From: Tubiluchus corallicola | Lineage: Eukaryota > Animalia > Priapulida | Length of the DNA: 64,000 nucleotides | Assembly: GCA_030141605.1 (NCBI GenBank) | Contig: JAQGDQ010000504.1 | Coordinates: 1 to 64,000 of the forward strand | Direction of reading: 5' to 3' | Part shown: positions 7,014-53,551 of the stretch, piece by piece | Numbering within the stretch: the stretch's first letter is position 1 | Layout of the letters: the number at the start of each line of letters is the position of its first letter | Notes under the pieces: model-generated | Told to the model about the DNA's origin: nothing | Database searches by the model: none | The model's input: only the letters and a program-made list of their open reading frames with translations | Position numbers and translations under genes: made by a program

Positions 7014-9712
7014 TCAGTTCGTAATGGCTTTACAAATAAAATTTTTATTATGTCTACAGCCCTTATCATTCCATTTGTAATTCCTCCCTCTCACTTGCAA
7101 ACAGTCTTCTTCTCCTCCATGGTTATCAGGCATTGTCTCTGACCAATTGGTGTATATGATTGGATCACCATTAGAAATCCATATCCAGTGACCTTCTCTG
7201 TGTTGATCCGTCCCACCAAGCCAGGTATCTCCCATTCCTATGAAAGGTCAAGTTCACTTCATTACTAAACAGAATGAGCGATTATTTGCAGTTTCATTCC
7301 TAAAAGAAGTTGCGTTTCTTCTAACCCATGTGGGCACCGAGCACAACACTTCTTTATTCTCTACTCTCTTTCACTGCTATATAATGAATTTAATACCTAA
7401 AAACAATCATGAACACAAACTTTCCCTGTATATTATTATACGCTTCACATGCATATACTCCTGAAGTTGGTAGTAGGTCCTGACACAAGCAATAAAAAAG
7501 TTGTTAGTGCCAAAATGCAGCCTTTCACATTGGCCAATGGAGGTGAATTTTATATTAGGTCAAAGGGAATTAAAATAAATAACATTTGACTAAAATAGTT
7601 TAAATTGCATCATAGTGAATCTTACGTGACACTGTGGAGAAGTTTGACCCTTTTATTAATCAAGCCTGTGTGTGTTGGCAGAGATATTAAACTTCAGAAA
7701 TTTTTAAATGGGAAATTGATCAGTCTTTCAGTAGGATTGGAAAATAAACACATCGAAATCACATTAAAGATGGTATTTTATTGATGCTAAAAAACTATCA
7801 AAAATGATCACCCAGAAATTGATGAAAGGATCTGATTTCTATTTTTGAAAGAGTGTATAACTTTGCCAGGTCAGTTTTGATTTCATTTGTAAAATTTAAA
7901 GCGTTTTTGCAAAGATACTACATATCTTACAAAACCTATGCAGTAACTGCTTCACGCTGCCATGATATTTGCAAAGATACTACACATCGTAAAAAAGACT
8001 GAACAGTAACTGATTCACTTTGCCAGGCTATCTGCAAAAATACTACACTTTGGAAAAATACTAGACAGAAAATAGATCTAAATTTCACACAGCAATAGAA
8101 ACCTATAAGAGAAAAACTAGAAAATAATAAAAGTCCTTTTATCAATTAGAACAACACAGAAAGTTTATTTTAGTTAAACAATTAAAGTCCAATTCTTATT
8201 TCTTAAAAATCCAACTTTTCCTGGTTTTTTTTCTGGTCCCATAATTTTAATCATGATAATAAGATTATCATAAAAGGTAAACGTTTGATAGCAGAAACAG
8301 AATATCTACTATTAGTTGAAAAAACTTTAAGCCTAATTCTTGGTGCGTCCTTTTCAATGAGTAAACAAAAAAGAAATAGGCTTTTAGATCAACTTGACAA
8401 ATTAAGTTTTGCTGGCTTACTTCACTAATATGCCTACCACTAGAGCTGGATTATGACCTTTTGGGCCCCGGACTAATAGAATTATGAGGCCTCCCTAAAA
8501 CGCACCACGAACTAACTCAATAGCACCCGTCTTGAAGATTCTTACTCGGGACATGATTTAGCAACATTTACATAGCTTGAAGAAAACTTATTGCAAATTC
8601 TTTGAGTAAGAATAGACTAGAATAGTTATTTTTTGTTTTTCGATAAACATATTCCTTAAGAAAAAAAACTGTTTTACTATTTATTGCAAACCAAATTAGC
8701 GCATATTTCAACACAACCATAGCGAAAAACAAATTTTTTATTCGATGTTATCAAAAATTGAGGGTTACGCTGCAGCCTTTTTTAGCTTATAGGATAATCT
8801 GGCCTTGCCAAACACATAACACAGTAAAATTTGTAAATGATTTAAATAATTGGCATCGAATGTGTTTAGCCATAAGATAAGCTATGACTGACCAATCACG
8901 TAACACAGTAAAATTTGTAAATGATTTAAATAACTTGCTTCTGGCTTTAATTTGCGTAACCAAAAAGTTATGTTCTGCAGGGGTCATTACAGCTGGTAAG
9001 TCTCCACCAAGCTGCTTGCAAAACATCACAGCTTTCCACCAGTGCAGTTTTGGCCTTGCGAAAAACTGGTAGCAATGTCCATTGTAGAACATTCCACCGC
9101 TTGGACAACAAGTTGCATTTGTCCTGGACTAGAAGAAAAAGAATTATCATTATAAGAAAAGAAGACATCTAGACAGAAGAGAGCTTACTGTTTCAGAAAT
9201 GTTTTAACAAATATTTGACTTTGTGTCACACGATAAATGAGTTTACAATTTAGTATCTGCCTTGTTTGCTTCTCACAACGTTGATTTTTGTATTTTACTC
9301 GGTGTATTTTCATTTAGGTGGATTGTTGGGTGAACTAAACCATAACCACGTTGAAACGTTGCAGATCTTTATGTGTGAATAAAAGCCAAATCCTTGCTTA
9401 AGTGGGTCCTGGCTAACATTTTTATATTATGCGTTAGTTCTCCTTATGACCATTCATAACTTACATTTTACAAAAGAGAGCGTAAATAAACACATTTAAA
9501 AGTAAGAATTTTTGTATGGTGACCTCAAGCAAACTGTGAAATAATAATTTTTTGTTAATTTACGAGCAGTACTAAGTGTTAAAATGAACAATTCTTTGCA
9601 TTAACATACATGTAGTTACCTGGTTAGCTTCTCTTTCACTGCCTGTACTTGAACAATGCAGAGTAACCAAGACACACAGTAGTAGTAAGTCTATCAAGCA
9701 ACCCACATTCAT
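7014..9712 (-). CDS. C-type lectin gene B1 (168 aa); coding exons 9712-9620, 9128-8939, 7237-7014
   Basis: Signal exon MNVGCLIDLLLLCVLVTLHCSSTGSEREANQ|gtaac; exon 2 ..CCPSGGMFYNGHCY..W.KA..FCKQLGGDL; exon 3 WLGGTD..EG.W.W..MPDN..C..WND..C..FIC. 93+190+224 nt gives an open frame when intron 2 uses a GC donor. Confidence 0.88.
8441..8807. mobile_element. Old hAT-like MITE in intron 2 of B1 (homologous copies in B2 and B4, partial in B3)
   Basis: Degenerate TIRs tagagctggatta / taatctggccttg; 8-bp flanks cctaccac / ccaaacac match at 6 of 8. Confidence 0.4.
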
Positions 9713-9877
9713 TGCGCGTATTGTATTTATTGTCAAGACGAAGATGAACTACAAAAAAACAACTTTTGCAAAAGTAATTAGTGGGCAAAAAATAAATAAA
9801 GATAAAAATAAATTTCAGAATAAAAAGGAAAGGGAAGAAAGGCATAGAGAACTCGAACTCTATCGAATCATAATAAT

Positions 9878-9939
<62 letters not shown>

Positions 9940-12770: not shown

Positions 12771-12860
12771 ATTACCTGTCTCTATTATGACGACACATAA
12801 AGGTCTACAAAATTTGTGCGTCGTGTTACTAGCTCATGTAATTGGTGAAATAATGAATAA

Positions 12861-13665
12861 CTAGCAAAGGCCCCGCAAAAGATTTTGCGTATAAATACAC
12901 GTGTAATCAATAATACGCGAACATCCTACACAGTCCTCATTTATAACACAAAGCCCGTAACATCGTGCCTACTTACCTAACGCAAAGCCAGTAGCAGCTT
13001 TTTACTGAATTAAACTTATAGACAGAGTACAATGGATGACGTCAGCATAATGGAATGCGGTCTGCAGTTTTCTAAGGCGAAAATTGTCGAAATTTGCGGA
13101 AAATAGAACACGAATTAACTCGTCGGTACTCCTCTCGGTGGACCTGCCCTAACATGTCGCCCACATCATCGTGTTGCCCTGTCCTTCCTCTTTGTAAAGA
13201 GCCCCATATCTCCTTCCTAGAGTCCCACCGGGCGACGCTAGAACGTTTTTCCCGCATGCTGTTTGGTCAAAATTTCGAAAAAATCGCGAGTTGGGTCCGG
13301 GAAAACGCCCGTTGCGGGGCGCTCTGGCCCTCTCGGGAATTCTAAATATTCCTACTACACCCACCGTTGAACGGGCTATCTATCCATACCCAGTATCCCC
13401 CTCGGCCCGTTCCCGTTCTCTACATCTCAGCCGTATAACTTTTGCAATTTTTTGCAAAAAACGGGCGAAAAATGGCCATTTTGGGAGGTTTTTCGCCCCC
13501 CGTTCCTCCCGGTGGGCCCGATTCGAAAAATAAACCATCAATGGCACGACACTAGATCGAGACCTTTCGTTTGATATATAGATCGCCGCAAATGGTGCCC
13601 TCGTCCGGGCTGTAGCCTCGAATCTTATATATATATATATATAAGATACCAAGAATATTAATATA
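12861..13665 (-). mobile_element. Non-autonomous Helitron copy H1
   Basis: Minus-strand 3' end has hairpin CGCAAAA-TC-TTTTGCG shortly before CTAG|T; 5' end is TA-rich; no TSD. Confidence 0.8.
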
Positions 13666-14503
13666 CTAGCAAATCCCCGCAAAAGATTTTGCGTATAAAT
13701 ACACGTGTAATTAATAATACGCGAACATCCTACCTAGTCCTCATTTATAACGCAAAGCCCGTAACATCCTGCCTACTTACCTAACGCAAAGCCTGTAGCC
13801 CGTAACATCATGCCTACTACTGTATGTCTGTTTATCTAACGCAGAGCAGCTTTTTGCTGAATTAAAGTTATAGAGTACAATGGATGACGTCACAACAATG
13901 CCTTTGCGTCAACAGTTTTCTAAGCGAAAATTGCCGAAAATGGAACCTCTAATTAACTCGCCAGTACTCCTCTCGGTGGACCTGCCCTAAAATATAACCT
14001 ACATCATCGTGTAGCCCTGTCCTTCCTCTTTGTAAAGAGCTATATATCTCCTTCCTAGAGTCCCACCGGGCGACGCTAGAACGTTTTTCCCGCAGGCTGT
14101 TTGGTCAAAATTTCGAAAAAGTTGCGAGTTGGGTCCGGGAAAACGCCCGTTGCGGGGCGACCTGGCCCTCTCGGGAATTCTAAATATGCCTACTACACCC
14201 ACCGCTGAACGGGCTATCTATCCATACCCAGGACCACCCTCGGCCCATTCCCGTTCTCTACATCTCAGCCGTATAACTTTTGCAATTTTTTGCAAAAAAC
14301 GGTCGAAAAAGGGGCATTTTTGGAGGTTTTTCGCCCCCCGTTCCTCCCGGTGGGCCCGATTCGAAAAATAAACCATCAATGGCACGACACTAGATCGAGA
14401 CCTTTCGTTTGATATATAGATCGCCGCAAATGGTGCCGTCGTCCGAGCTGTAGCCTCGAATCTTATATATATATTAAGATACCAAGAATATTAATATATA
14501 GGA
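13666..14503 (-). mobile_element. Non-autonomous Helitron copy H2 (head-to-tail with H1)
   Basis: Same hairpin plus CTAG; 5' end TCCTATATATT. Confidence 0.8.
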
Positions 14504-16185: not shown

Positions 16186-16224
16186 TATCAACAAGAGAGA
16201 ACTAGGTTATGATGCAATGTTATT

Positions 16225-17493: not shown

Positions 17494-20068
17494 TCAGTTC
17501 GTAATGGATTTACAAATAAAAGTTTTATTTTGTCTACAGCCCTTATCATTCCATTTGAAATCCTTCCATTTCACATGCAAACAGTCTTCTCCTCCTACTC
17601 CATGGTTATCAGGCATTGTCTCTGACCAATTGGTGTATATAATTGGATCACCATTAGAAATCCATATCCAGTTACCTTCTCTGTGTTGATCCGTCCCACC
17701 AAGCCAGGTATCTCCCATTCCTAAGAAAAGTCAAGTTCACTTAATTACTAAACAGAATGAGCGATTAGTTGCAGTTTCATTCCTAAAAGAAGTTGTGTTT
17801 CTTCTAACCCATGTGGGTACCAAGCACAACACTTCTCTCTTTCACTGCTATATAATGAATTTAGTAAGTAAAACAATCATGAACACAAATTTTCCCTGTA
17901 TATTATTATACGCTTCACAAGCATATACTCCTGAAGTTGGTAGTAGGTCCTGACACAAGCAATCAAAAAGTTGTTAGTGCGAAAATTCAGCCTTTCACAT
18001 TGGCCAATGCGAGGTGGATTTTGAATTAGGTTAAAGGGAATAAAGTAAATAACATTTGACTAAAATATTTCAAATACTTTAAATTGCATGATAATGAATC
18101 TTACGTGACACATAGTGGAGAAGTTTGACCCTTTTATTAATCCAGCCTGTGTGTGTTGGCAGAGATACTAAACTCTAGAAATTTTTGAACCAGAAAGTTG
18201 ATCAGTCTTTCAGTGGGATTGGAAAATAAACACCATTTTGATTTAAACTCTTCAACTAAATTGCGTTAACGATGGTGTTTTATTGACGCCAAATTTATAA
18301 TCACAAAATGATCACCCAGAAATGGATGAAAGGAACTGATTTCTATTTTTGAAAAAGTGCATAACTTTTTCAGGTCAATTTTGATTTATTTTGTAAAATT
18401 TAAAGCGTTCTGTATTAATATTAATACAGTAACTGTTTCACGCTGCCAGGCTATCTGCAAAAATACTACACTTTGGAAAAATACTAGGCAGACAGAAAAT
18501 AGATCTAAATTTCACACAGCAATAGAAACCTATCAGAGAAAAACTAGAAAATAATAAAAGTCCTTTTATCAATTAGAACTACACAGAAAGTTTATTTTAG
18601 TGAAACAATAAAAGTGCAATTCTTATTTCTTAAAAATCGAACTTTTCCTGTTTTTTTTCTCGTCATATAATTAAAATCAAGATAATAAGATTACGTCTGA
18701 TGCCAAAGAACCAATTATCAAAGGTAAACGTTTTATAGCAGAAACAGAATCTCTACTATTAGTTGAAAAAACTTTAAGCCTCATTCTTGGTGGGTCCTTT
18801 TCAAAGAGTAAGCAAAAAAGAAATAGGCCCTTAGATCAACTTGACAAAGTAAGTTTTGCTGGATTACTTCACTAATATGCGTACCACTAGAGCTGGATTA
18901 TGACCTTTTGGGCCCCTGGGCTAATAAAATTATGAGGCTTCCCTAAAACGCACCACAAACTAACTCAATAGCACCCGTCTTGAAGATTCTTACTCGGGAT
19001 ATGATTTTACAACATTTACATAGCTTGAAGAAAACTTATTGTAAATTCTTTGAGTAAGAATAGACTAGAATAGTTATATTTTGTTTTTTGATAAACATAT
19101 TCTTTAAGAAAAACTCTATTTTACTATTTACTGCAAACCAAATTAGCACATATTTCAACACAACCATAGTGAAAAACAAATTTTTTTTCGATGTTATCAA
19201 ACCTGGAGGGCTAGGCTGCAGCCTTTTTTTAGCTTATAGGATAATCTGGCCATGCCAATTACATAACACAGTAAAATTTGTTAATGATTTAAATAACTTG
19301 CGTTTGGCTTTAATTTGCTTAACCAAAAAGTTATGTTCAGCAGGGGTCGTTACAGCTGGTAAGTCTCCACCAAGCTGCTTGCAAAACATCACAGCTTTCC
19401 ACCAGTGCAGTTTTGGCGTTGCAAAAAACTGGTAGCAATGTCCATTGTAGAACATTCCACCGCTTGGACAACAAGTTGCATTTGTCCTGGCCTAGAGGAA
19501 AACGAATTATCATTTATAAGAAAAACAGACATCTAGAGCTTATTGTTTCAGAAATGCTTTAACAGACATTTGGCTTTGTGTCACACGATACGTAAGTTTA
19601 CAATTTAGTATCTGCCTTGTTTGCTTCTGACAACGTTGATTTTTGTATTTTGCTCAGTGTATTTTCATTTAGGTGGATTGCTGATTGAACTAGGCCATAA
19701 CCGTGTTGAAACGTTGCAGATCTTTATGTGTGAATAAAAGCCAAATCCTTGCTTAAGTGGGCCCTGGCTAACATTTTTATCTTATGTATTAGTTCTCCTT
19801 GCGACCATTCGGTAATTTACATTTTACAAAAGAGAGCGTAAATAAACACATTTAAAAGTACGAATTTTTGTATGGTGACCTCAAGCAAACTGTGAATAAA
19901 TAACTATTTCTTAATTTACTAGCAGTACTAAGTGTTAAAATGAACAATTGTTTGCATTAACATACATGTAGTTACCTGGTTAGCTTCTCTTTCACTGCCT
20001 GTACTTGAACAAAGCAGAGTAACCAAGACACACAGTAGTAATAAGTCTATCAAGGAACCCACATTCAT
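17494..20068 (-). CDS. C-type lectin gene B2 (169 aa); coding exons 20068-19976, 19491-19302, 17720-17494
   Basis: Paralog of B1 with the same exon structure and MPDN/WND motifs. Intron-2 donor is AAC|gcaagt, a weaker context than in B3/B4. Confidence 0.85.
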
Positions 20069-20211: not shown

Positions 20212-20252
<41 letters not shown>

Positions 20253-29656: not shown

Positions 29657-30181
29657 TCAGTTCGTAATGGATTTACAAACAAATGAAAAATCTCGAGTAC
29701 ATTTGACATCATTCCATTTGTAATCCCACCATACTTCTATACAGTGTTCTACTCCTCCACCATTGTCAGGCATTTTCGCTGTCCAATTGGAGTATAAGAT
29801 TTCATGACCATTAGAAATCCATATCCAGTGACCTTCTCTGTGTTGATCCGTCCCACCAATCCAGGTACGTTTCATTTCTAAAGCAAGGTCAAGGTCACTT
29901 TATTGTTAATAAATCAACGATTATTTGCAGTTTTATTCCTAAAAGAAGTTGTGTTTCTTGTAACCCATGTGGGTACCGATCATTCAAATTACACGAGTTC
30001 CAAACACAACACTTCTTTATTCTCTACTCTCTTTCACTGTTACATAATGAATTTAGTAAGTAAAAACAATCATGAACACAAACTTTCCCTGTATATTATT
30101 ATACGCTTCACATGCATATACTCACATATGCGTAACCAAGACACACAGTAGTAGTAAGTCTACCAAGGAACCCACATTCAT
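29657..30181 (-). pseudogene. B-type C-type lectin pseudogene: 5' part of exon 1 fused to the end of intron 2; exon 3 (29877-29657) intact
   Basis: ATG at 30181 reads MNVGSLVDLLLLCVLVTHM*, then jumps into intron-2 sequence at about 30123. Exon 2 is missing. Exon 3 keeps its AG acceptor and an open frame (WIGGTD..MPDN..WND..FVC). Confidence 0.85.
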
Positions 30182-30367
30182 TGTGCGTATTGTATTTATT
30201 GTCAAGACGAAGATGAACTACAAAAACAATTTTTGCAAAAGTAATTAGTTAGCAAAAAATATAGAAAAATAAAAATAAATTTCAGAGTAAAAAGAAAAGT
30301 TAAGAAAGGCACAGAGAACTCGAACTGTATCATAATGATAATAATAATAATAATAATGATGATGATT

Positions 30368-30428
<61 letters not shown>

Positions 30429-31541: not shown

Positions 31542-31768
31542 AAATGAGAAATACGTGGAATGGAGGAACAGATAGGCTGAATGAAAACGACTTTAGATGG
31601 ACTTCTAATGGTCAATCCGTAACATTTACTAACTGGATTGATGGTGTACCTAATGACCATGAAGGATTAGAGCTTTGCATATTAATGCAGCTTCATGAGA
31701 ATTATCAATGGAACCATATAGATTGTAACGAGGAATTTTTTTTCATTTGTGAATCTGATGCCAAGTAG
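31542..31768 (+). pseudogene. Orphan A-type C-type lectin exon 3 with a destroyed splice acceptor
   Basis: Open frame MRNTWNGGTD...CESDAK. The acceptor is ttcataA here versus ttcataG in A and A'. It is flanked only by about 0.5 kb of intron 2 and about 0.4 kb of 3' sequence, with no exon 1 or 2 nearby. Confidence 0.8.
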
Positions 31769-35211: not shown

Positions 35212-35906
35212 TCGTATATATTAATTCTACTTATACATATATATATAGATAGGCTTCGAGGCTACAGCTTCGACGACGGCACCATTTGCAGCGATCTATG
35301 CATCAAAAGAAAGGTCTCGATCTAGTGTCGTGCCATTGGGCATTTATTTTTTGAATCAGGCTTACCGGGACGAATGGGTGGGGCGCGAAAAACCTCCAAA
35401 AATGGACATTTTTTGGCCTTTTTTGCAAAACTTATACCTCTTAATTCTAAAAAACGGGAATGGGCCGGGAATGGAGCCAGTACTGGATAGATAGCCCGTT
35501 CAGCGGTGGGTGTCATAGGCCTATTTAGAATTCGCGAGAGGGCCACGGCGCCCAGCAACTGGCGTTTTCCCGGACCCAACTCGCATTTTTTTCTAAATTT
35601 TGACCAAACAGCCTTCGGAAAAAACGCTCTGGCAGCGTCTGGTGGGACTTTCGGAAGAAGGTATATAGCTCTTTAGAAAGAGGAAGGACAGGGCTACGCG
35701 ATGATGTGGGCTATATTTTAGGACGCATCCACCAAGAGGAGTGCCGACGAGGTAATTAGATGTTCTACTTATGGCGATTTTCTCTTGGAACACTGCTGAC
35801 GCAGAGACATTGTTCTGACGTCATCCATTATACGCTGCCTATAATCTTATAACTTTAATTCAGTAAAAGCTGCTGCAGGCTTTGCGTTAGGTAAATAAAC
35901 AAACAC
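35212..35906 (+). mobile_element. Helitron copy H5 upstream of B3 (3' end replaced by microsatellite)
   Basis: Starts A|TCGTATATATT as H4 does; body homologous to H1-H4. Confidence 0.7.
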
Positions 35907-36269
<363 letters not shown>

Positions 36270-36978: not shown

Positions 36979-37103
<125 letters not shown>

Positions 37104-37254
37104 ATTATTATGACTGCGATACAGTTCGAGTGCCTTTCTTCCCTTTCATTTTTGTTCTGAAATTTATTTTTATTTATTTTTTGCCCACTAATTACTTTTG
37201 CAAAAGTTGTTTTTGTAGTTCATCTTCGTCTTGACAATAATTACAATACGCGCA

Positions 37255-39184
37255 ATGAATGTGGGTTGCTTGATAGACTTACTACTACTGTGTGTCTTGG
37301 TTACTTTGCATTGTTCAAGTACAGGCAGTGAAAGAGAAACTAACCAGGTAACAACATGTATGTTAATGCAAACAATTTTAACACTTAGTACTGCTCGTAA
37401 ATTAAGAAATAATTATTTATTAACAGTTTGCTTGAGGTCACCATACAAAAATTCTTACTTTTAAATGTGTTTATTTATGCTCTGTTTGTAAAATGCATGC
37501 TACCAAATAGTCGTAAGGAAAACAATGCTTAAAACAAAAATAACAGCCAGCACCCTCTTAAACAAAGAATTAAGCTCTAGATGTCTGCTTTTCTTATAAA
37601 TGATAATTCGTTTTCCTCTAGTCCAGGACAAATGCAGCTTGTTGTCCAAGTGGTGGAATGTTCTACAATGGACATTGCTACCAGTTTTTCGCAACGCCAA
37701 AACTGGTCTGGTGGAAAGCTGTGATATGGTGCAAGCAGCTTGGTGGAGACTTACCAGCTGTAACGACTGCTGCAGAACATAACTTTTTGGTTAAGCAAAT
37801 TATAGCCAGAGGCAAGTTATTTAAATGATTTACAAATTTTACTGTGTTATGTGATTGACAAAGCCAGATTTTCCTATAAGCTAAAAAAGGCTACAGCCTA
37901 GCCCTCAAAGTTTAATAACATCGAATAAACAATTTGTTTTTCACTATGGTTGTGTTGAAATATGTGCTAATTTGGTTTGCAATAAACAGTAAAATAGTGT
38001 TTTTCTTACAGAATATATCTGTAAAAAAACTAAAAAGAACTATTCTAATCTATTCTTACTCAAAGAATTTGAAATAAGTTTTCTTCAAGCTATGTAAATG
38101 TTGCTGAGGCATATCACGAGTAAGAATCTTCAAAACGGGCACTGTTGAGTTAGTTGGTGGCCCGTTCTAGGGAGGCCTCACAATTTTATTAGCCCAGGGG
38201 CCCAAAATGTTACTGCTCAGTGTTTTTTTACTATGAATAATATCTTTTCAGATAGCCTGGCAAAGTGAATCAGTTACTGCTCGGTGTTTTTTTTACTGTG
38301 AGTAATATAATTGCAGACAGCCTGGCAAAGTGAAGCAGTTACTGCTCAGTGTTTTTTTACTGTGAGTAATATAATTGCAGACAGCCTGGCAAAGTGAAGC
38401 AGTTACTGCTCAGTGTTTTTTTTTACTATGAGTAATATAATTGCAGACAGCCTGGCAAAGTGAAGCAGTTACTGCTCAGTGTTTTTTTTACTGTGAGTAA
38501 TATAATTGCAGATAGCCTGGCAACGTGAATCAGTTACTGTATTAATATTAATACAAAGCGCTTTAAATTTTACAAAAGAAATCAAAACTGACCAGGCAAA
38601 GTTATTATATATATAGATATACAAAATCTACCTCCCATTGGCCAATGTGAAAGGCTGCATTTTAGCACTAACTACTTTTTGATTGCTTGTGTCAGGACCT
38701 ACTCCCAACTTCAGGAGTATATGCATGTGAAGCGTACAATAATATACAGACAAAATTTGTGTTCATGATTGTTTTACTTACTAAATTCATTATATAACAG
38801 TGAAAGAGAGTAGAGAATAAATAAGTGTTGTGCTTGAATCATGTGTAATGTGAATGCTAGGTACCCACATGGGTTAGAAGAAACTCAACTTCTTCTAGGA
38901 ATGAAACTGCAACTAATCGTTGATTCTGTTTAATAACGTAGTGACCTTGACCTCTCTTAGGAATGGAAGATACCTGGCTTGGTGGGACGGATCAACAAAG
39001 CGAAGGTTACTGGATTTGGATTTCTAATGGTCATGAAATCATATACACCAATTGGTCCCCGACAATGCCTGACAATGCTAACGGTATAGAACACTGTTTA
39101 CATGTGAGAGACAAAGACAGCAAATGGAATGATCACGCCTGTTCCCGAAAGTTTTCAATTATTTGTAAATCCATAGCGAACTGA
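37255..39184 (+). CDS. C-type lectin gene B3 (168 aa); coding exons 37255-37347, 37622-37811, 38961-39184
   Basis: Signal exon ends CAG|gtaac; exon 2 runs tag|TCC...AGAG|gcaagt; exon 3 starts ttag|GA ATG. Open frame with MPDN/WND. Confidence 0.88.
38210..38540. repeat. About 59-bp minisatellite in intron 2 of B3
   Basis: About 5.5 copies of ..cagacagcctggcaaagtgaagcagttactgctcagtgtttttttactgtgagtaatataattg; fewer units in B1, B2 and B4. Confidence 0.85.
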
Positions 39185-41207: not shown

Positions 41208-41209
<2 letters not shown>

Positions 41210-41855
41210 GCTACAGTTTCGACGACGGCACCATTTGCAGCGATCTATGCATCAAAAGAAAGGTCTCGATCTAGTGTCGTGCCATTGGGCATTTATTTTT
41301 TGAATCAGGCTTACCGGGACGAATGGGTGGGGCGCGAAAAACCTCCAAAAATGGACATTTTTTGGCCTTTTTTGCAAAACTTATACCTCTTAATTCTAAA
41401 AAACGGGAATGGGCCGGGAATGGAGCCAGTACTGGATAGATAGCCCGTTCAGCGGTGGGTGTCATAGGCCTATTTAGAATTCGCGAGAGGGCCACGGCGC
41501 CCAGCAACTGGCGTTTTCCCGGACCCAACTCGCATTTTTTTCTAAATTTTGACCAAACAGCCTTCGGAAAAAACGCTCTGGCAGCGTCTGGTGGGACTTT
41601 CGGAAGAAGGTATATAGCTCTTTAGAAAGAGGAAGGACAGGGCTACGCGATGATGTGGGCTATATTTTAGGACGCATCCACCAAGAGGAGTGCCGACGAG
41701 GTAATTAGATGTTCTACTTATGGCGATTTTCTCTTGGAACACTGCTGTCGCAGAGACATTGTTCTGACGTCATCCATTATACGCTGCCTATAATCTTATA
41801 ACTTTAATTCAGTAAAAGCTGCTGCAGGCTTTGCGTTAGGTAAATAAACAAACAC
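41208..41855 (+). mobile_element. Helitron copy H6 upstream of B4 (both ends lost in microsatellites)
   Basis: Almost identical to H5; the same spurious ORF translations appear in the ORF track. Confidence 0.7.
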
Positions 41856-42458
<603 letters not shown>

Positions 42459-43433: not shown

Positions 43434-43540
<107 letters not shown>

Positions 43541-44052
43541 TGTTTTGAAGTAATCACAAAAGTTTTATTTTATGTTCAAATATTACCGAAAATCAAAAAC
43601 GTGGCTCTCTTCGTTGACTAAAACGCTGACTAAAAAACGTGCTCAATTCTGATTGGCTGACCTACTAAGTGCATATAACGAAGCCAAGTTTTACAGGCAA
43701 TTCTAAATAAGTGCAACTTTAAATTAAAGGGCAAGCAGAGAAAAATCTTCCGAACATTTCCCCCCTCTTGATAAGTTTTAACAAAACATATCAACAAAAG
43801 TTATTCTAACATTCGGTAATTAAAATTTTCCATTCTGTGCTACATGACGTTTACGTTTAACTACGAAAAACAAAATTCTTGCAAACTTTAGCAAGCAGTA
43901 CGAAAACGAATAATCGCAAAATCATAGTAATAATTTTCTGTGGTGCTGATCATCTGCAGTATTTGTAGAAACTTCACTTTTGATTGTCGGGTTTCTCTTC
44001 CTCAATGAACTCCAGTGGACAAAGTTTGGTGATTGGTCGTGCAAGTTCACTA

Positions 44053-44580
44053 CAGTGGACTCTCGTTACAAGAATCACACGTATAAGAATCAGCTCGATA
44101 TAAGAATCAAAATCGCGTTTCCCGAATTGAATCTGCATTTTCCTAGTGAAAATCCGCTCGTATAAGAATCACCCTTCTTTCGATAGTAGAATCAATTTTG
44201 GCACCAACTCCATTGTCTCTCATTCCCTGCTTACATGGTTCTGCGCAGTGGGCGTGGCGGACACCACAGAGATTTCAAATTTGTTTGTTTTATGACAAAA
44301 ATTATGTGCATTAAAAAAATTTTAAGGCAATTCTGGCATCATGAAATATTTACCCAAGCATGAAATAAAAACATTAGTCTAGGAATTTTTAGGTCCTTTT
44401 TAGGCCAGAAAAACATTATGCTGTTTCATGTCGTTTCTAGCGTAATTTCGGGAAATAAATAATTTTTACGTGCATCAAAATTTTTTAAAGCAATTCTGGG
44501 TCATGCTCGTTATAAGAATCGCTCGTTATAAGAATCACTTTGCCTTCTCCCGAGGTGATTCTTATAACGAGAGTCCACTG
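44053..44580. mobile_element. Tc1/mariner-pogo type MITE nested in the BEL integrase
   Basis: 26-bp TIRs cagtggactctcgttacaagaatcac / gtgattcttataacgagagtccactg with TA on both sides. Confidence 0.9.
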
Positions 44581-44582
44581 TA

Positions 44583-45470
44583 TTGCCAATCTTCAGTTTT
44601 GCAACTCGAGTGTGCCCGTCGCTACCAGGGTAGACTTCTAGTATGCGTCCCATAGGCCACTGTCCTCTAGGTGTATTTGGAGATATCACAAGTACGATGT
44701 CGTTTACTTGAATGTCCTTCTGCACACGATTCCATTTACTGCGTCTGTTGAGTCCTGGAAGCCACTCTCGCATCCATCTTTTCCAAAAGTGACGTATTAA
44801 TTCTTGGACACGCCTCCAACGCTTTCTAGGATTAAAGTCTGTGTTATCCACTGATTCGGGCGCGAATTGTCCACCAACTTGCCCAAATAAAAAATGGTTT
44901 GGCGTCAAGGGAATGTCATCTTTCTCATCTGCTGTTTGGTACGTCAATGGTCTCGAATTTAATAGTGCTTCTGCTCCGGTAAATGCTGTCATGAGTTCTT
45001 CATCCGTGACGTCAGCGTTTCCGAGAATAGCGAATATGGCTCGTTTTGTGGCTTTTACCATTATTTCATAGGCTCCTCCAAAATGTGGTGCTAATGGTGG
45101 GTTAAAATGCCACTTGATACCTTGGTTTGCAGATGTCCGTTGAATCTTCTCTTCATCTAACGTCGCTAATAGACTTTGTAGTTCATTGCTCGCTCCTACG
45201 AAGTTTAAACCGTTGTCAGAAAGCATCTCAGTTGGCAAACCTCTGCGAATGACCATGCGATAAAAGGCGTTTAAGTACGAATCAGTGTCAAGGCCAAAGG
45301 CTATCTCTAAATGCACTGCCTGCGATTTCATACAAGTGAAGAGGCAAGATAGCGTTTCTGTCGACGTTTTCCTCTTCCTTGAACTGTAATAAAAGGTCCA
45401 GCAAAATCCACTGCTGTCCTAGCAAAAGCTCGTAAAGGCAGTTTCACTCTGATCTCTGGAATTGGTGCCA
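44583..45470 (-). pseudogene. BEL/Pao integrase region (frameshifted; C-terminus split by a MITE)
   Basis: AVHLE, RRG.P..SDNG.NFVG, APHFGG, LNSRPL, LTPNHFL, FWKRW..EWL. The tail RPITKLCPLE resumes below 44052. Confidence 0.85.
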
Positions 45471-47651
45471 TCACTTGCGTTGCAGATTGAGCTTTCTGCT
45501 TTTACGACACTTTGCACATTCTTTCTCAAATTTTCTGATTTCTTCCCTGCCAGAAATTATCCAATATCGAGCTGACAGTGAAGCAAGAGTCTGATTCACC
45601 CCTATTGCATGATGAGCTTTTTCATGATGATGTCCAATTATCAACTTGGTCACCCAGTTATTCTTAGGCAGAATGATCGGATGGCGTGCATCGTACGATA
45701 AGTATTCTGCGTGAATGAGACGTCCTTCGCTGCGAATAACTCCATCCTCGTCTAATCTAGCTTGCAGCTTTAATAAATTGCTATTCTTCGGCAACTGTTG
45801 GTTATTCTGGAGTAATTTGTATTCCAGTGAAAAGGCTTCACGTTGCATGTTTCGTACAATGCTTATCTCAATGTCTTGCAATTCGTCTGGCTCTAATTCT
45901 CCAAACTTCTTGTGCAGTTTGGAATCACGACAGTTTTCTAGAAAACGATGTACCCATGCTTGTACTCGAATCAGTCGTAACCAACTGGAAAACCGCTCAG
46001 GTTTTAGACGCCAATTGTCATCCTGGTTTTGTATTGGTCCAGTAATGTAAGTTTCAGCAGTTTCACGATTAGATACATGTCTAATTTTTGTTGGCTTTCT
46101 AAGTTCTGCGTCATCCATTTGCTGAAATTCTATAATTTTAGATGGCCATTCTTGCTCGTTCTTGTGAAGAAATTTCGGTCCGCTCCACCATTTTTCATCA
46201 TTAATAAGTTGATTTGCAGTTTTCCCTCTAGTCGCAGCATCAGCAGCATTCTCTTTTGATGTGACATGCCGCCATTGATGTGGAAATGTTTGACTCTGAA
46301 TTTCGCCTATACGATTAGCGATGAACGGTTTCAGTGTGCGACTTCTACTCCTTATCCACCATAAAACGTTCATACTATCACACCAAAAAATTGCATTTTT
46401 TAGTTCCATGTTTAGTGCACCAGCTATGTGGTCCGTAAGCCTTAGCCCCAGTATTGCAGCCATCATTTCTAGTCGTGGAATACTAATTGCAATCAGAGGG
46501 GTTACACGAGACTTTGCTGCGATGAGTCGACACGATATAATTCCATCAGGATAGGTACAACGTAGATAGCTAAATGCTGCATAGGCTTCTTGCGATGCAT
46601 CTACGAATGTGTGCAGTGTGCATGAATCTGTACCCCCCTCCGTGACCAAACATCTCGGAATATGAATTTCTGGCATCTCGGTCAATTCTGTAAACCACAT
46701 TTTGGCTTTCCATTGCAAGTTTTCGTCAAGCTCGTCGTCCCATCCTAAACCGGCTGTCCACATTTCCTGCATGATAATTTTGCCTCGAATGAGAAATGCT
46801 GTCAGAAATCCCAATGGATCAAATATTGTAGCGCTCTTCCTCAGTATATTACGCTTGGTAAATACGAAATTGTCGATGTCTATGGATTTTGGTTTGAAGG
46901 TGAAAACATCTTCCTTTGCCAGCCACAGTACTCCAAGTGTTTTTATACTCGGAAGAAGTCCTTCATCTAAGTTAATTTCTGATGCTCTCTCCTCTTGTGG
47001 TATCTCGGCTAGCACTACAGGTGAATTTGATAACCATTTACGAGCTCGCATGCCAGCCTTTTCCCAAAGACTGGACAACTGACAGTAGAGCTCTATGCCT
47101 TGTTCATCGTCGATGGCTGAATCCATGCTATCGTCCATACACGTCGAGTAGAGTACGGTTTCTGTAGCCATTGGATACTGCAATTGAAATTTTTCTGCAT
47201 GCTTCCGCGTCACAAATTGTGCAAGAAATGGTGATGCATTTACCCCAAAAACGATCCTTTCGAATTCATATTGGTCAGGCTGTCTGTTTTCGAAATTCCT
47301 CCAGAGAAATCTATGGTAAACCCTGTCCTCAGGAACAATTTTAATCATCAAGTACATCTCTGCAATGTCCGATACCAATGCTACAGGATTTTTACGAAAA
47401 CGAAGCAAGACATCGAATAAGTCTCTCTGCAGCTTTGGTCCGGGACTAATGACATCATTTAGCGAGACTCCATCGCATTCTTCTGACGAATCAAACACCA
47501 TGCGTACTTTTGTTGTCTCTCTATCTGGTCTGATTATTGGAAAATGGGGTAAAAACCATCGTCCGCATTGCTGATCTTCTAATGATGTCACTTGACGTAT
47601 GTAGCCTTTCTTCACATACTGCTGAATATTATCTTCGTATATTTTTGCCAC
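45471..47651 (-). pseudogene. BEL/Pao reverse transcriptase-RNase H region
   Basis: FLPHFPII, KVRMVFD, SLND...GPKLQ, FGVNASPF, CMDD (YxDD site changed to CMDD), IFDPLG, FVDAS, IPRLE. Confidence 0.88.
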
Positions 47652-49989
47652 TTCTGGATTTTTTAGTAGACGTTTTTCGGTGCTTGCTCTGTAGTCTTTT
47701 CAGTGCCTTTTCGTAGCTCAATTTCGCACTAGGCAGCTCAACTGAATTATCTTTCCATGGTATGCAAACCTCATAATGTCCATCCGTCATTTTCATGGAT
47801 TTCTCTACTTTAGCTAAAGCGTTCTCTGCATCAATATCCAGAATGCGGCAACTTGGCATCGTGCCAGCTGAATCTATCTGCCAAAATTGTTGCAACATCT
47901 CATCAAGCCGAATTTCACTAGCCTCAGCCGAAAAATACGTGTGAACGAAATTGGTGCGAACACGATAACTGTCGCAATCATTTGGTTGTCCTATACATGT
48001 CCATCCGAGTGGAGTTAATCTAGCTATTGGCTCCCCTGGCTTTCCACGAACATCTCTGTACGAATAATGTAAATCGGTGTAATCGCTGCCAATCAACATG
48101 TCTACGATGAGGCGACGTCCTAGTTTTGGAAATTCAATAGCTTTCAAATGGTCCCACTTGTGACTGCATTCATTCCAGTTTATTACATTCAAATTTCCTG
48201 TAACTCTTTCAGCCCTTAATGCGCTGAATTTCATGTCCAGCTGGCCGTTGACACTCTGTAGATTAAATGTTACAGGTCTTGTTTCGAAAACTTTTGTTTG
48301 CCCATTTAAAACGCTGATGTTAATCTGCTGAGTCTCACCCTCAAGTCCTAACTCTGCTGCTACATCCGAATTGATGTACGATCTTGTGCTGGCTTCATCT
48401 AATAATGCGTTGATTGTCAATTTACGATTTCCATTTTTCACGATTATTGGTATAGTTCGCAACATAATTTTTTCAACTATCTTGGGATTGCCAGATGTCA
48501 TTGTCACAGCCGAATTTTGTTTGTCAGGTGGTATGGTCGATGTGCTACTGCGATGCGATGAACCATCTTCAGCTGCAGATTTGATTGATGACGGTGTAGA
48601 ACCAACAGCATTGTTGTAGTTCTTGTTGGTCGCGGCTAAATGCGAATTATTTTCTCTAACTTCTTTTGACGAATGTAGAAATCTGTTATGATTGTATTTG
48701 CAGCTGTCTATGCCACAAACTCTGCTACGTGGACAGGTTTGACCTTGGTGATCTGACCCCAGACAGCGATAGCATAAGTTCAACCGCTTTGCAGAATCCC
48801 ATCTTTGTGGAATGCTCATCTTGCGAAACTCATCACACCTCCAAACACCGTGAGGCCCATTGCAAACTTTGCATAATCTTTGTGATTGACTACTTCTGGA
48901 AACTGCAGCTTCTTGGTTATCACCTGTTGTCCCAAAGTACGATCTCGGTTTTAGTTTTGTGTCCAAATTGCTGGCCCCTAAACCATAAACTGTCTCGTGT
49001 GCTATTGTGTAAAACTCTGCCTCGCGAATTATCCATTCTCTTAGCGAAATAACATTTTCTGCCCGACGTTTCTCGAATAGCCAACGCTGGAATTGAGCCA
49101 GCATGCTTTCTGGCATTTTCTTCTTTAATTTTGCGTAAAGTGATCCATTACCTAATTCTTCGTGTCGATCAGCCTCTTGTAAATTTACTACGGTCAAGTC
49201 CAATAAATCTGCGAATTTTTCTATTTCTTTAGCGTGCTCAGTTCGAATTGGCCTAAATCTTTCCAGTTCTTCTAATTGCAGCGCCACCTGTCGCCGACGA
49301 CCGCCATATTTTCTATCTAATCTCTCTTTAGCTGCTTGGTATGCAACTGCCGAATGCCCCAAATTCTCAATGACCTTCAACGCCTCACTGGATAAATACT
49401 GTCTAAGTTGCAAAAGTTTATACTCTGCTGTCGCTGGCGCTGAATCTATACAAGCACAAAACGCTGCTTTCCAATTTTCGTAGCTCTTTTTGTCTCCATT
49501 AAAAACCGGGATGGAAACTCTCTTTAATTGCCTCCACATATCAACACCTATGGAAACGTCCTCATGGTGCACGGTAGCTGCTGTGTTGTACCGATCAGCT
49601 GGGTGATGGCGGGTCCATGATGTGTTGCTAAATTCTCGCTGCTCAGAATCGAAGTGAGCTTCCCTGTATAGTTCAGCTTTTACGTTATAATGTTCAGTAG
49701 CAGACGTTGTAGGGATATCACTCCCGAGAGGTTTTGCAGGTGGCGTAGCCCATGGTGAATGCATGTTGTCAGATTTGATGTTTGCTGACGCCCTTGCTGT
49801 AGCAGTAGATCCGTCTCCATGTTCCAGTTTTAAGGTTTGCAGGTAGGTCTGTGCTTTACTGTATACTGTCGCGTACTCGTCAGACAACTTCTCCAATTCG
49901 TCAATGACCTCGTCTATGCATTCTTCTATTTTTTGACCCCCTGTCTCATCTGCCAGGTAATTTTCCAGTAAATTCTCCACCACTGACAT
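47629..49989 (-). pseudogene. BEL/Pao gag-protease region
   Basis: IPVFNGD (DUF1759-like gag), three Cys-His knuckles (CKVCNGPHGVWRC, CYRCLGSDHQGQTC, CGIDSCKYNHNRFLH) and protease ALLDEAS. An in-frame stop lies upstream at about 50210, and there is a frameshift at about 47690. Confidence 0.85.
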
Positions 49990-50663
49990 TGCTCTACTTT
50001 GCGCCTCGTCTATCTTATCAAATAAATCTAAAATGTTCTGACGTGTTTCCCATTCGTCCTGGTGGACTTCTTGACTGATTAATTGCAGTAGTTTATTTTT
50101 TAACTTCGTAAGTGCAGATTTGGCGCTAGCTTTTTCTGCTTTTAACTCCTGCCGACTAGTGTTGATAATTTTAACGCTACGTACCCTATCGCTCTCCTTT
50201 CCAGCAGATTATTGCTGCTGACTCATGGCTATGGCGACACGATGAAGTCAAATGAAACCCGATACATGTAGTACGACCAATACGATAACGATATTTACTG
50301 CAGACGAGTTTCACAGCATAAATTACCGCAGACGAGTTTCACTGCATAACTACTCTCTGCTACCAGTTGTTTTGAAGTAATGACAAAAGTTTTATTTTAA
50401 ATTCAAATATTACCGAAATGTTTTGAAGTAATCACAAAAGTTTTATTTTATGTTCAAAAATTACCGAAAATCAAAAACGTGGCTCTCTTCGTTGACTAAA
50501 ACGCTGACTAAAAAACGTGCTCAATTCTGATTGGCTGACCTACTAAGTGCATATAACGAAGCCAAGTTTTACAGGCAATTCTAAATAAGTGCAACTTTAA
50601 ATTCAAGGGCAAGCAGAGAAAAATCTTCCGAACAATTACTATTATTATTATTATTTGGCGTCA

Positions 50664-50726
<63 letters not shown>

Positions 50727-50875
50727 GCGGTACAACATTTCGAATTCTCTGTGCCCTTCATCCATTTTCTTGTTACTCTGAAATTTATTTTTATTTATTT
50801 TTTGCCCACTAATTAGTTTTGCAAAAGTTGTTTTTGTAGTTCATCTTCGTCTTGACAATAATTACAATACGCGCA

Positions 50876-53551
50876 ATGAATGTGGGTTGCTTGATAGACT
50901 TACTACTACTGTGTGTCTTGGTTACTCTGCATTGTTCAAGTACAGGCAGTGAAAGAGAAGCTAACCAGGTAACAACACGTATGTTAATGCAAAGAATTGT
51001 TAATTTTAACACTTAGTACTGCTAGTAAATTAAGAAAAATTATCTATTCACAGTTTGCTTGAGGTCACCACACAAAAATTCTTACTTTTAAATGTGTTTA
51101 TTTACGCTCTCTTTTGTAAAATGTAAGTTACGAATGGTCGTAAGGATAATAATACATAAGATAAAAATGTTAGCCAGGACCCACTTAAGCAAGGATTTGG
51201 CTTTTATTTACGCATAAAGATCTGCAACGTTTCAACACGGTTATGGTCTAGTTCAATCAGCAATCCACCTAAATAAAAATACACTGAGCAAAATACAAAA
51301 ATCAACGTTGTGAGAAGCAAACAAGGCAGATACTAAATTATAAACTTATGTATCGTGTGACACAAAGCCAAATGTCTGTTAAAACATTTCTGAAACAATA
51401 AGCTCTAGATGTCTGCTTTTCTTATAAATGATAATTCGTTTTCCTCTAGGCCAGGACAGATGCAACTTGTTGTCCAAGCGGTGGAATGTTCTACAATGGA
51501 CATTGCTATCAGTTTTTTGTAACTCCAAAACTAGACTGGTGGCAAGCTGTGATATGGTGCAAACAGCTTGGTGGAGACTTACCAGCTGTAACGACCCCTG
51601 CTGAACATAACTTTTTGGTTAAGCAAATTATAGCCAGAGGCAAGTTATTTAAATCATTAACAAATTTTACTGTGTTATGTAATTGGCATGGCCAGATTAT
51701 CCTATAAGCTAAAAAGGCTGCAGCCTAGCCCTCCAGGTTTGATAACATCGAATAAAAAATATGTTTTTCACTATGGTTGTGTTGAAATATGTGCTAATTT
51801 GGTTTGCAATAAACAGTAAAATAGTGTTTTTCTTAAAAAATATGTTGATAAAAAAACAAAAAATAACTATTCTAGTCTGTTCTTACTCACATAATTTGCA
51901 ATAAGTTTTCTTCAAGCTATGTAAATGTTGCTAAATCATATCCCGAGTAAGAATCTTCAAGACGGGTGCTATTGAGTTAGTTCGTGGTGCGTTTTAGAGA
52001 GGCCTCATAATTTTATTACCCCAGGGGCCCAAAAGGTCATAATCCAGCTCTAGTGGTAAGCATATTACTGAAGTAATCCAGCAAAACTTAATTTGTCAAG
52101 TTGATCTAAGGGCCTATTTCTTTTTTGCTTACTCATTGAAAACGACACACCAAAAATTAGGCTTCTGTTTCTGCTACAAAACGTTTACCTTTGATAATTG
52201 GTTCTTTGGCATAAGACGTAATCTTGATTTTAATTACAGGACTAGAAAAAACCCAGAAAAGTTGTATTTTCAAAAAATAAAAATTGGATTTTTATTGTTT
52301 TACTAAAATAAACTTTCTGTGTTGTTCTAATTGATAAAGCACTTTTATTATTTTCTAGTTTTTCTCTTATAGGGTTGTATGTTTTATTGCTGTGTCAATC
52401 AGTTTAGTGTTTTTAAACGACGTGTAGTATGTTTGCAGATAGCCTGGAAAAGTGAATCAGTTACTGTTCAGTTTTTTTTACGATGTGTAGCATCTTTTCA
52501 GATAGCCTGGCAAAGTGAAGCAGTTACTGTATAATTTTTATGACAGGTAATATCTTTGCAGATAGCCTGGCAACGCGAAGCAGTTACTGTATTAATATTG
52601 ATACAAAACGCTTTAAATTTTACAAAAGAAATCGAAACTGACCTAGCAGAGTTATTCAGTCTTTCTTAAAATAGAAATCAGTTTGTTTCACCAATTTCGC
52701 CAATTGTAAATTGGCGTCAATAAAACACCATCGTTAACGCGATTTAAATGAAGAGTTTAAATCAAAATGGTGTTTATTTTCCAATCCCACTAAAGACTGA
52801 TCAACTTTCTGGTTCAAAAATTTCTAGAGTTTAGTATCTCTGCCAACACACAAAGGCTTAACTAATAAAAGGGCCAAATTTCTCCACAGTGTCACGTGAG
52901 ATTCACTATCACACGATTTAAACTATTTGAAATATTTAAACTATTTTAGTCAAATATTATTTATTTTAATTCTCTTTACCTTTATACAAAATCCACCTCG
53001 CACTGCCCAATGTGAAAGGCTATCATTTTGGCACTAACAACTTTTTAATTGCTTGCATCAGGACCTACTCCCAACTTCGGAAGTATATGCATGTGAATCG
53101 TACAATAATATACAGGGAAAATTTGTGTTCATGATTGTTTTTACTTACTAAATTCATTATATAACAGTGAAAGAGAGTAGAGAATAAAGAAGTGTTGTGC
53201 TTGAATCATGTGTAATGTGAATGCTAGGTACCCACATGGGTTAGAAGAAACACAACTTCTTTTAGGACTGAAACTGCAACTAATTGTAGATTCTGCTCAA
53301 TAATGAAGCGACCTTGACTTTTCTTAGGAATGAAAGATACCTGGCTTGGTGGGACGGATCAACACATCGAAGGTTACTGGATTTGGATTTCTAATGGTCA
53401 TGAAATTATATACACCAATTTTTCAAGTAGACAGCCTGACAACCATGAAGGTAAAGAAGACTGTTTACACGTGAGATTGCAAAATTACTATTGGAATGAT
53501 TTCAAATGTACAGAAAACTATTCATTTGTTTGTAAATCCATTGCGAACTGA
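50876..53551 (+). CDS. C-type lectin gene B4 (168 aa, QPD/WND motif); coding exons 50876-50968, 51450-51639, 53328-53551
   Basis: Same exon structure as B1-B3 with an open frame. Carries the canonical QPD..WND motif. Confidence 0.88.

What the first reader, a model, noticed from the sequence alone, without database searches (positions are those of the whole stretch)
7014..53551. B-type lectin paralogs have a hypervariable ligand-binding half-exon inside otherwise conserved duplicated DNA
Seen: the second half of exon 3 differs sharply among copies while Cys, PDN and WND stay fixed. B1 WSETMPDNHGGEEDCLQVRGRNYKWNDKGCRHNKNFIC; B2 WSETMPDNHGVGGEDCLHVKWKDFKWNDKGCRQNKTFIC; pseudogene WTAKMPDNGGGVEHCIEVWWDYKWNDVKCTRDFSFVC; B3 WSPTMPDNANGIEHCLHVRDKDSKWNDHACSRKFSIIC; B4 FSSRQPDNHEGKEDCLHVRLQNYYWNDFKCTENYSFVC. 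By hand count B3 and B4 differ at 24 of 73 residues in exon 3 (21 in the last 43) versus 7 of 63 in exon 2, and their signal exons differ by one residue. Their upstream Helitron blocks (about 650 bp) differ by only a couple of bases. Known: this part of the CTLD (long loop, beta3/beta4) forms the Ca2+/ligand site, and exons outpacing introns is a hallmark of toxin and immune-recognition families. Inference: a rapidly diversifying secreted recognition (immune, venom or adhesive) repertoire.
Basis: partly seen in the sequence, partly recalled or inferred. Interest (0 to 1): 0.78.

Follow-up and report, generated by a model that had tools for sequence, protein, structure and literature searches.

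The report
Lectin cluster with fast-changing binding patch
An animal carries a cluster of duplicated genes for predicted secreted lectins in which one stretch of about 110 bases, covering the predicted ligand-binding surface, differs about three times more between copies than the surrounding DNA, likely because selection favoured different binding targets, a pattern already known from immune and venom gene families.

Summary
The variable block (B4 53420-53533) carries 0.61 changes per site against 0.19-0.25 in the flanks; read-derived contigs confirm it and its sharp edges. Two qualifications: introns are 5-16% diverged, not near-identical, and B1 and B2 are not unusually different from each other in the block. 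The 662-base near-identical block is one patch in a recombination mosaic. Averaged dN/dS is about 1, but site models find 20-25% of codons at omega 4-5, beside the invariant calcium-site residues; 0 of 72 null simulations reached the observed statistic. The block also looks about twice as old as its flanks. The selection signal weakens, and for the block alone is lost, when multi-base mutations are allowed. Best reading: diversifying selection on a binding surface, with gene conversion evening out the flanks. Ligand, tissue and expression are untested. A clean new example of a known kind.

The parts
7014..9712 (-). Gene B1: exons 9712-9620, 9128-8939, 7237-7014; predicted secreted single-domain C-type lectin, 168 aa; intron 2 has a weak-looking GC donor
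7032..7145 (-). Variable block of B1 (exon 3 codons 31-68)
17494..20068 (-). Gene B2: exons 20068-19976, 19491-19302, 17720-17494; 169 aa, one-codon insertion in the loop after PDN; weak-looking GC donor
17512..17628 (-). Variable block of B2
29657..30181 (-). B pseudogene: first 50 bases of exon 1 (30181-30132) joined by a deletion to the end of intron 2; exon 2 absent; exon 3 (29877-29657) still open and with all invariant residues
29675..29785 (-). Variable block of the pseudogene
37255..39184 (+). Gene B3: exons 37255-37347, 37622-37811, 38961-39184; 168 aa
39053..39166 (+). Variable block of B3
50876..53551 (+). Gene B4: exons 50876-50968, 51450-51639, 53328-53551; 168 aa; the only copy with QPD
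   Evidence: Pfam Lectin_C 39.9 bits, cut-off 22.6
53420..53533 (+). Variable block of B4; in DNA runs X1 and X2 only one contig each covers 53421-53519, while many stack on both sides and joints skip 53420-53521
35259..35921 (+). Repeat block upstream of B3, Helitron-like ends; 2 differences in 662 bases from the B4 copy; inferred recent conversion or crossover tract
41208..41870 (+). Same block upstream of B4, separated from the gene by the LTR element
43541..50637 (-). BEL/Pao LTR retrotransposon inserted in the TTA repeat upstream of B4; LTRs 98.6% alike over 219 bases; 5-base target duplication
2524..5102 (-). Sister-family gene A1: exons 5102-4995, 4343-4148, 2750-2524
57857..60433 (+). 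Sister-family gene A2: exons 57857-57964, 58618-58816, 60207-60433; differs from A1 most in the same half of exon 3 (19 of 132 bases vs 3-7% non-coding)
31544..31768 (+). Isolated A-type exon 3 with a lost splice acceptor (pseudogene fragment)

Best explanation
This is a tandem family of genes for predicted secreted, single-domain C-type lectins whose predicted binding surface was likely diversified by repeated positive selection, while gene conversion or unequal crossing-over between copies likely evened out the flanking DNA and left the binding block as an older, more divergent island. Shown: gene structures, the divergence peak and its edges, invariance of the Cys/PDN/E/WND scaffold, a mosaic of relationships along the units. 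Supported by model fits: a class of fast codons (omega about 4-5) and a block about twice as deep as the flanks. Inferred from homology: the fixed residues hold a calcium ion and the fast residues around them set what is bound, so each copy would grip a different glycan or protein. Guessed from family precedent: the targets are microbes or parasites (soluble pattern recognition); venom, adhesion or gamete recognition are not excluded.
For: Peak: 0.61 minimum changes per site in the block vs 0.19 in the 5' half of the same exon, 0.21 at the end of intron 2 and 0.25 downstream. Selection: exon 3, five copies, M8 vs M8a LRT 17.9 (p 2e-5), about 21% of codons at omega 5; without the pseudogene 12.6; exons 1+2 LRT 0.0. 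Block alone LRT 9.0, p 0.003. With the neutral process taken from 633 non-coding columns, selection is needed even when the block may be older (LRT 18.1, 4 df, p 0.001), and extra age given selection is twofold (LRT 4.2, p 0.04). 0 of 72 simulations under 'older block, omega at most 1' reached the observed LRT of 8.72. The seven sites with posterior above 0.9 (alignment columns 33, 43, 51, 52, 59, 60, 63) lie next to the invariant motif residues, which align with the EPN/E/WND region of solved lectins (role of these motifs: PMC9965136, passages). Exchange between copies: informative sites cluster by topology (38 of 63 neighbours alike, permutation p 0.004), B1 and B4 have identical exon 1 but 7-12% different introns and flanks, B3/B4 share 662 bases with 2 differences. 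The sister A pair peaks in the same half-exon, 12 non-synonymous vs 1 synonymous codon. B1/B2 show 10 non-synonymous, 0 synonymous changes in the block (p 0.056 alone).
Against: Averaged pairwise dN/dS in the block is 0.52-1.12 in 9 of 10 pairs. Allowing double and triple base changes cuts the whole-exon LRT to 6.5 (p 0.011) and makes the block-only tests non-significant (2.0, p 0.36; 5.7, p 0.06 and 3.2, p 0.21). Only five sequences and 44 codons, four independent lineages, a tree that recombination violates, and my own implementation of the models (not PAML; naive posteriors). Synonymous depth rests on few sites: 5 of 14 invariant-residue codons vary in the block vs 2 of 16 in the 5' half. 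In the A pair pN 0.147 vs pS 0.129 in the block is no excess by site counting. B1 and B2 have GC donors without the preceding AG, so their splicing is uncertain. No orthologues from another species were available to show conversion directly.
Confidence: 0.6

Rival explanations
1. The block is an old island without ongoing positive selection: the copies diverged long ago, conversion has since homogenised everything else, and selection only removes conversion events that overwrite a copy's binding block (the opsin-type divergence peak).
For: Averaged dN/dS about 1; synonymous tree length 0.84 in the block vs 0.18 in the 5' half even under M8; mosaic flanks; sharp edges in the sequence and in the contig stacks; mechanism described in PMC3924837 (passages).
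Against: Needs a block 4.5 times deeper than the flanks and fits 9 log-likelihood units worse than age plus selection and 7 worse than selection alone; 0 of 72 simulations under this model gave the observed LRT; 9 of 14 invariant-residue codons in the block have no synonymous change; about 70% of block codons would have to be fully neutral.
Confidence: 0.22
2. A local mutational process (clustered multi-base, transversion-rich changes or short patches copied from other family members) makes the block change fast, and selection merely tolerates the changes outside the scaffold residues.
For: 8-13 of the 21-26 differing block codons per distant pair differ at two or three bases; transitions:transversions are 16:34 in the block vs 83:51 in non-coding flanks, and freeing kappa improves the fit by 5.9 log units even with selection; with multi-base changes allowed the block-only selection test is not significant; shared sites inside the block group the copies discordantly. 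A transversion-biased mutator was proposed for conotoxins (recalled; the search found no paper).
Against: B1/B2, the least diverged pair, differ only by single-base changes (0 of 10 multi-base codons) at the flank rate; synonymous single-base changes in the block are 3 transitions to 2 transversions; differences are not confined to one base type for any candidate template; repeated selected single changes also give multi-base codons.
Confidence: 0.13
3. The pattern is an artefact or neutral decay: misassembly, or dead genes drifting.
For: One copy is a pseudogene; B1 and B2 have weak GC donors; B4 has an LTR element about 240 bases upstream of its start codon.
Against: Contigs reproduce the B4 block with 0 differences; no stop or frameshift in any of 5 exon-3 copies; 35 of 74 columns invariant, including all motif residues; drift would not concentrate change in 110 bases.
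Confidence: 0.05

Closest known systems
Snake-venom C-type lectin-like proteins and other toxin families with 'accelerated evolution' (PMC7285919, passages)
   Same: Same fold family; signal peptide and introns more conserved than the mature coding part; short surface segments that differ sharply between isoforms (ASSET).
   Different: Here only the binding half of the last exon outpaces introns; exon 2 and the 5' half of exon 3 do not. The calcium-site motifs are kept. No evidence of a venom role.
Divergence peak under interlocus gene conversion, e.g. primate red/green opsin exon 5 (PMC3924837, passages)
   Same: Local peak over functional residues inside paralogues that exchange DNA.
   Different: Five or more copies rather than two, and many fast codons rather than two key substitutions; conversion is inferred from within-genome mosaicism only.
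GYL-like multigene lectin family of the bivalve Glycymeris yessoensis (PMC9965136, passages)
   Same: Secreted single-CTLD lectins of about 160-170 aa, conserved signal peptide, variable mature part (54-62% identity there), WND kept and first motif variable.
   Different: No sequence relationship was tested; there the data are cDNA isoforms, and the passages read give no intron comparison or selection test.
Sea-urchin Sp185/333 (SpTransformer) immune gene clusters (PMC5103432, abstract and outline)
   Same: Clustered paralogues in both orientations, each with a short tandem repeat beside it (here TTA upstream of 5 of 5 B copies).
   Different: Unrelated protein; that family has no pseudogenes by a section title, this cluster has two; the TTA repeat here may simply be inherited with the duplicated unit.
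Diversity-generating retroelement variable proteins, e.g. Mtd, TvpA, AvpA (PMC5006420, passages)
   Same: C-type lectin fold with a short C-terminal variable region around beta3-beta4 on a fixed scaffold.
   Different: No template repeat and no adenine-specific mismatches; variation is between germline paralogues; the nearby reverse transcriptase gene belongs to a BEL/Pao element.

Membership tests
C-type lectin domain proteins | Match to the Lectin_C profile above its cut-off | tested here: met
   B4 exon 3: PF00059 39.9 bits, cut-off 22.6; exon 2 alone matched no family; 96 solved chains matched at E up to 0.001, nearly all named lectins or CTLD receptors among the 60 shown
C-type lectin domain proteins | Four conserved cysteines (plus the N-terminal pair of long-form domains) | tested here: met
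   Three invariant Cys in exon 3; invariant Cys after the first helix region and N-terminal cysteines in exon 2; disulfide pairing inferred, not shown
Calcium-dependent sugar-binding C-type lectins | EPN or QPD motif, downstream Glu and WND | tested here: inconclusive
   B4 has QPD, E and WND; B1, B2, B3 and the pseudogene have MPD, so the first calcium ligand is missing (ligand positions recalled from mannose-binding protein). mosGCTL-3 also has MPD at this place
Calcium-dependent sugar-binding C-type lectins | Measured calcium-dependent binding of a glycan | not testable with these tools
   needs protein
Secreted soluble lectins | Signal peptide, no membrane anchor | tested here: inconclusive
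   Hydrophobic stretch in exon 1 (mean Kyte-Doolittle 3.15-3.35 over 11 residues), no other hydrophobic segment seen in the 168-169 aa products; no signal-peptide predictor was run
Accelerated-evolution families (snake-venom type) | Mature coding sequence more diverged than introns | tested here: met
   Met for the 3' half of exon 3 only (0.29-0.32 vs 0.05-0.16); exon 2 and the 5' half are at or below intron level
Accelerated-evolution families (snake-venom type) | dN/dS above 1 | tested here: inconclusive
   Site class omega 4-5 significant in standard models; averaged pairwise value about 1; weak or lost with multi-base mutations
Accelerated-evolution families (snake-venom type) | Expression in a venom gland | not testable with these tools
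   no RNA data laid for this locus
Divergence peak under gene conversion | Local peak with raised synonymous divergence | tested here: met
   Peak; synonymous depth about twofold, p 0.04, so only marginal
Divergence peak under gene conversion | Exchange between paralogues in the flanks | tested here: met
   Clustered informative sites p 0.004, identical B1/B4 exon 1; 662-base patch with 2 differences
Divergence peak under gene conversion | Flanks group by species while the peak groups by orthologue | not testable with these tools
   No genome held; no close relative among 150 proteins listed (best exon-3 identity 41-49%)
Diversity-generating retroelement | Template repeat differing from the variable region only at adenines | tested here: not met
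   For each of 5 copies as template, mismatches fall on all bases roughly by composition; no other copy of the block in the window

The most novel reading that the evidence does not exclude
The 100-110-base block behaves as an exchangeable specificity cassette: a larger family, pseudogenes included, keeps a pool of binding blocks that short conversion tracts reshuffle onto a homogenised lectin chassis, so that individuals carry different lectin repertoires. Hints: edges sharp to within a few bases in the contig stacks, further variants outside the window, a pseudogene whose exon 3 is still intact, discordant sharing inside the block and a transversion-rich, multi-base pattern.
Probability: 0.12. 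Interest if true: 0.7.

Novelty: new member of a known kind. Interest (0 to 1): 0.38.

Why it matters
It is a compact natural experiment: near-identical chassis with four very different binding blocks and one QPD versus several MPD motifs, so specificity could be mapped by expressing four or five small proteins on a glycan array. It also shows why 'exon outpaces intron' needs care: selection and conversion both contribute, and a near-identical flank does not date a duplication. The kind of phenomenon is well known from venom and immune families, and this scan has logged similar islands in other genomes, which limits the surprise. It would matter much more if the block proved to be reshuffled between copies within populations.

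Tried and rejected
No whole genome is held for this window, so family size and orthologues could not be counted. Two word-indexed protein searches (B4 exon 3: 3 candidates; exon 2 alignment: 115 candidates; longer proteins only) gave no hit at E up to 0.001. The profile search gave 15,362 hits; the 150 listed are all multi-stretch proteins and none is a close relative, so neither the animal group nor an orthologue was identified. No RNA holder was listed among 6 runs: no evidence either way. The one contig of run X6 (RNA only by guess) near exon 2 runs through the intron 1 boundary with 12 other letters: not evidence of a transcript. Runs X3 and X4 have no contig over 53421-53519 at 80% likeness, but their depth is low and X3 is the same sample as X1, so the gap says nothing about individual variation. 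Summed contig depths were not used as copy numbers. AlphaFold on exon 3 alone gave mean pLDDT 45.8 and was discarded; variable sites were placed by alignment instead. A diversity-generating-retroelement mechanism was rejected. Identical TGT codons at all three Cys were not counted as conotoxin-like codon conservation: too few sites in an AT-rich genome. B4 shares HEGKE with A2, but three synonymous differences in five codons argue against recent copying. No earlier scan finding on lectins in this genome. Paper searches surfaced no description of this family; the library is partial and the organism is not known to me, so this is no proof that it is undescribed. No supplements were read.
Full report
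What is there. Four B genes are complete, with three exons: a signal-like exon of 93 bases, exon 2 of 190 bases and exon 3 of 224-227 bases, giving 168-169 residues. The fifth has lost exon 2 and most of both introns by a deletion but keeps an open exon 3. Intron 2 begins with GC in all four B genes and both complete A genes, at the same position and phase. B4 exon 3 matches Pfam Lectin_C above its cut-off and aligns with mosquito mosGCTL-1 and -3, mannose-binding protein and codakine among solved structures.

The observation. The quoted peptides and counts are right: B3 and B4 differ at 24 of 73 residues in exon 3 (21 in the last 43), 7 of 63 in exon 2 and 1 in exon 1; Cys, PDN, the following Glu and WND are fixed in all five; the upstream block has 2 differences in 662 bases. 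Across five copies the 3' half of exon 3 has 0.61 minimum changes per site, against 0.19 in the 5' half, 0.21 at the end of intron 2 and 0.25 downstream. In 100-base steps B3/B4 run 6, 31, 7, 3 differences across the exon and into the 3' flank. In DNA runs of one sample, a single contig per run covers B4 53421-53519 (0 differences in X1), many contigs stack on both sides, and several join 53415-53420 to 53521 with other letters between. So the block is real and sharply bounded. Loose ends in those runs continue in ways that match none of the eight window copies, so the family extends beyond the window.

Two corrections to the framing. First, the duplicated DNA is not otherwise near-identical: pairwise differences are 4.5-10% in intron 1, 7-16% in intron 2 and 8.5-13% downstream. 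The 662-base block is a patch; a BEL/Pao LTR retrotransposon (43541-50637) separates it from B4. Relationships change along the units: 64 informative sites cluster by topology (permutation p 0.004), and B1 and B4 have identical exon 1. This is what gene conversion or unequal crossing-over leaves, and it means flank similarity does not date the copies. Second, B1 and B2 differ in the block no more than in their flanks (p 0.44), though all 10 changes are non-synonymous.

Selection or an old island? But the average mixes invariant and very fast codons, and multi-base codons inflate counted synonymous changes. Codon site models, written here in Python, give M8 vs M8a LRT 17.9 for exon 3 (about 21% of codons at omega 5), 12.6 without the pseudogene, and 0.0 for exons 1+2. 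For the block alone the LRT is 9.0. To separate age from selection I fixed the neutral process from 633 non-coding columns: flank rate with omega at most 1, lnL -602.9; flank rate with selection, -545.1; older block without selection, -552.0 (4.5 times deeper); both, -542.9 (2.0 times deeper). Selection is needed given age (p 0.001); age given selection is marginal (p 0.04); the 5' half needs neither. With branch lengths and kappa free the LRT is 8.7, and 0 of 72 simulations under the no-selection model reached it. Against this: allowing double and triple base changes lowers the whole-exon LRT to 6.5 (p 0.011) and the block-only tests to 2.0-5.7, not significant. The block is transversion-rich (16:34 vs 83:51 in flanks), although its few synonymous single changes are not clearly so (3:2). 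The sister pair A1/A2 also peaks in this half-exon (14% vs 3-7% non-coding; 12 non-synonymous to 1 synonymous codon, but pN 0.147 vs pS 0.129), a weak independent echo.

How it likely works. The fixed residues are those that form the calcium and sugar site of C-type lectins (EPN or QPD with WND, in the long loop region: PMC9965136, passages; ligand numbering recalled). B4 has QPD, the galactose-type motif; the others have MPD and lack the first ligand. The same paper notes that neighbouring residues also set specificity. The seven best-supported fast sites (columns 33, 43, 51, 52, 59, 60, 63 of alignment A1) lie just before the motif, next to the Glu, in the turn between the two strands before WND and right after WND. 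The inference is a fixed scaffold with a rim that differs per copy, each copy binding a different target. Selection for new rims drives amino-acid change; conversion keeps the chassis alike and is selected against where it would overwrite a rim. Soluble recognition of microbes or parasites is the most common role for such proteins and is my guess; nothing here tests it, and no expression data were obtained.

Comparison with known systems. It works like snake-venom lectin-like proteins and other accelerated-evolution families (PMC7285919, passages; congerins in PMC3269628, passages), but the acceleration is limited to half an exon and there is no sign of a venom role. It has the shape of the opsin-type divergence peak under conversion (PMC3924837, passages); the cross-species test of that model could not be run. 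It resembles the Glycymeris lectin family in layout and Sp185/333 clusters in having a microsatellite beside every copy (PMC5103432, abstract). It uses the same region of the fold as diversity-generating retroelements (PMC5006420, passages) but fails their adenine test. No close relative was found: the best exon-3 identity among the 150 proteins listed is 41-49%. Earlier AI notes on other genomes describe similar islands; they are unchecked and were not used as support.

Verdict. Observation confirmed; interpretation partly supported. A new, apparently lineage-specific lectin family showing a known evolutionary pattern, probably selection plus conversion (0.6), with an old island without positive selection (0.22) and a local mutational or patch-copying process (0.13) as live rivals. 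Interest 0.38. The boldest reading not excluded is an exchangeable specificity cassette drawn from a larger pool (probability 0.12, interest 0.7).

Noticed in passing
window 8938, 19301, 37812, 51640, 4147, 58817: Intron 2 starts with GC in all six complete A and B genes at the same position; B1 and B2 lack the AG that precedes it in B3 and B4, so their donors look weak.
   Followed up: partly
window 43541-50637: BEL/Pao LTR retrotransposon with 98.6% alike LTRs and a 5-base target duplication, inserted in the TTA repeat upstream of B4; coding region in three open stretches (50208-47632, 47699-45474, 45418-44513); the LTR nearer B4 carries a 51-base tandem duplication at 50368-50469.
   Followed up: partly
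window 12850-16180, 22500-23100, 35259-35921, 41208-41870: Six copies of a roughly 700-base GC-richer repeat with Helitron-like ends; present at the same site upstream of B2, B3 and B4 and absent at that site in B1; B2's copy is about 16% diverged from B3/B4. The Helitron label was not tested against a repeat library.
   Followed up: partly
window 9866-9936, 20212-20249, 30332-30425, 36982-37111, 43438-43539 and 50664-50725: A TTA-type microsatellite lies about 140-160 bases upstream of the start codon of every B copy.
   Followed up: no
window 29657-32400: The B pseudogene and the A pseudogene fragment lie back to back, each reduced to little more than exon 3.
   Followed up: no
window 24588-26660: Short open stretches on the minus strand that read like fragments of a second retroelement polyprotein; not scanned.
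   Followed up: no
window 7906-8068, 38209-38539, 52410-52592: A 63-65-base minisatellite in intron 2 with 2.6, 5.1 and 3.0 copies in B1, B3 and B4; this part of the intron accounts for much of B3's intron divergence.
   Followed up: no
window 53400-53420 (runs X1-X4): Loose contig ends show exon-3 variants that match none of the eight copies in the window, in the sample behind X1-X3 and in X4.
   Followed up: partly
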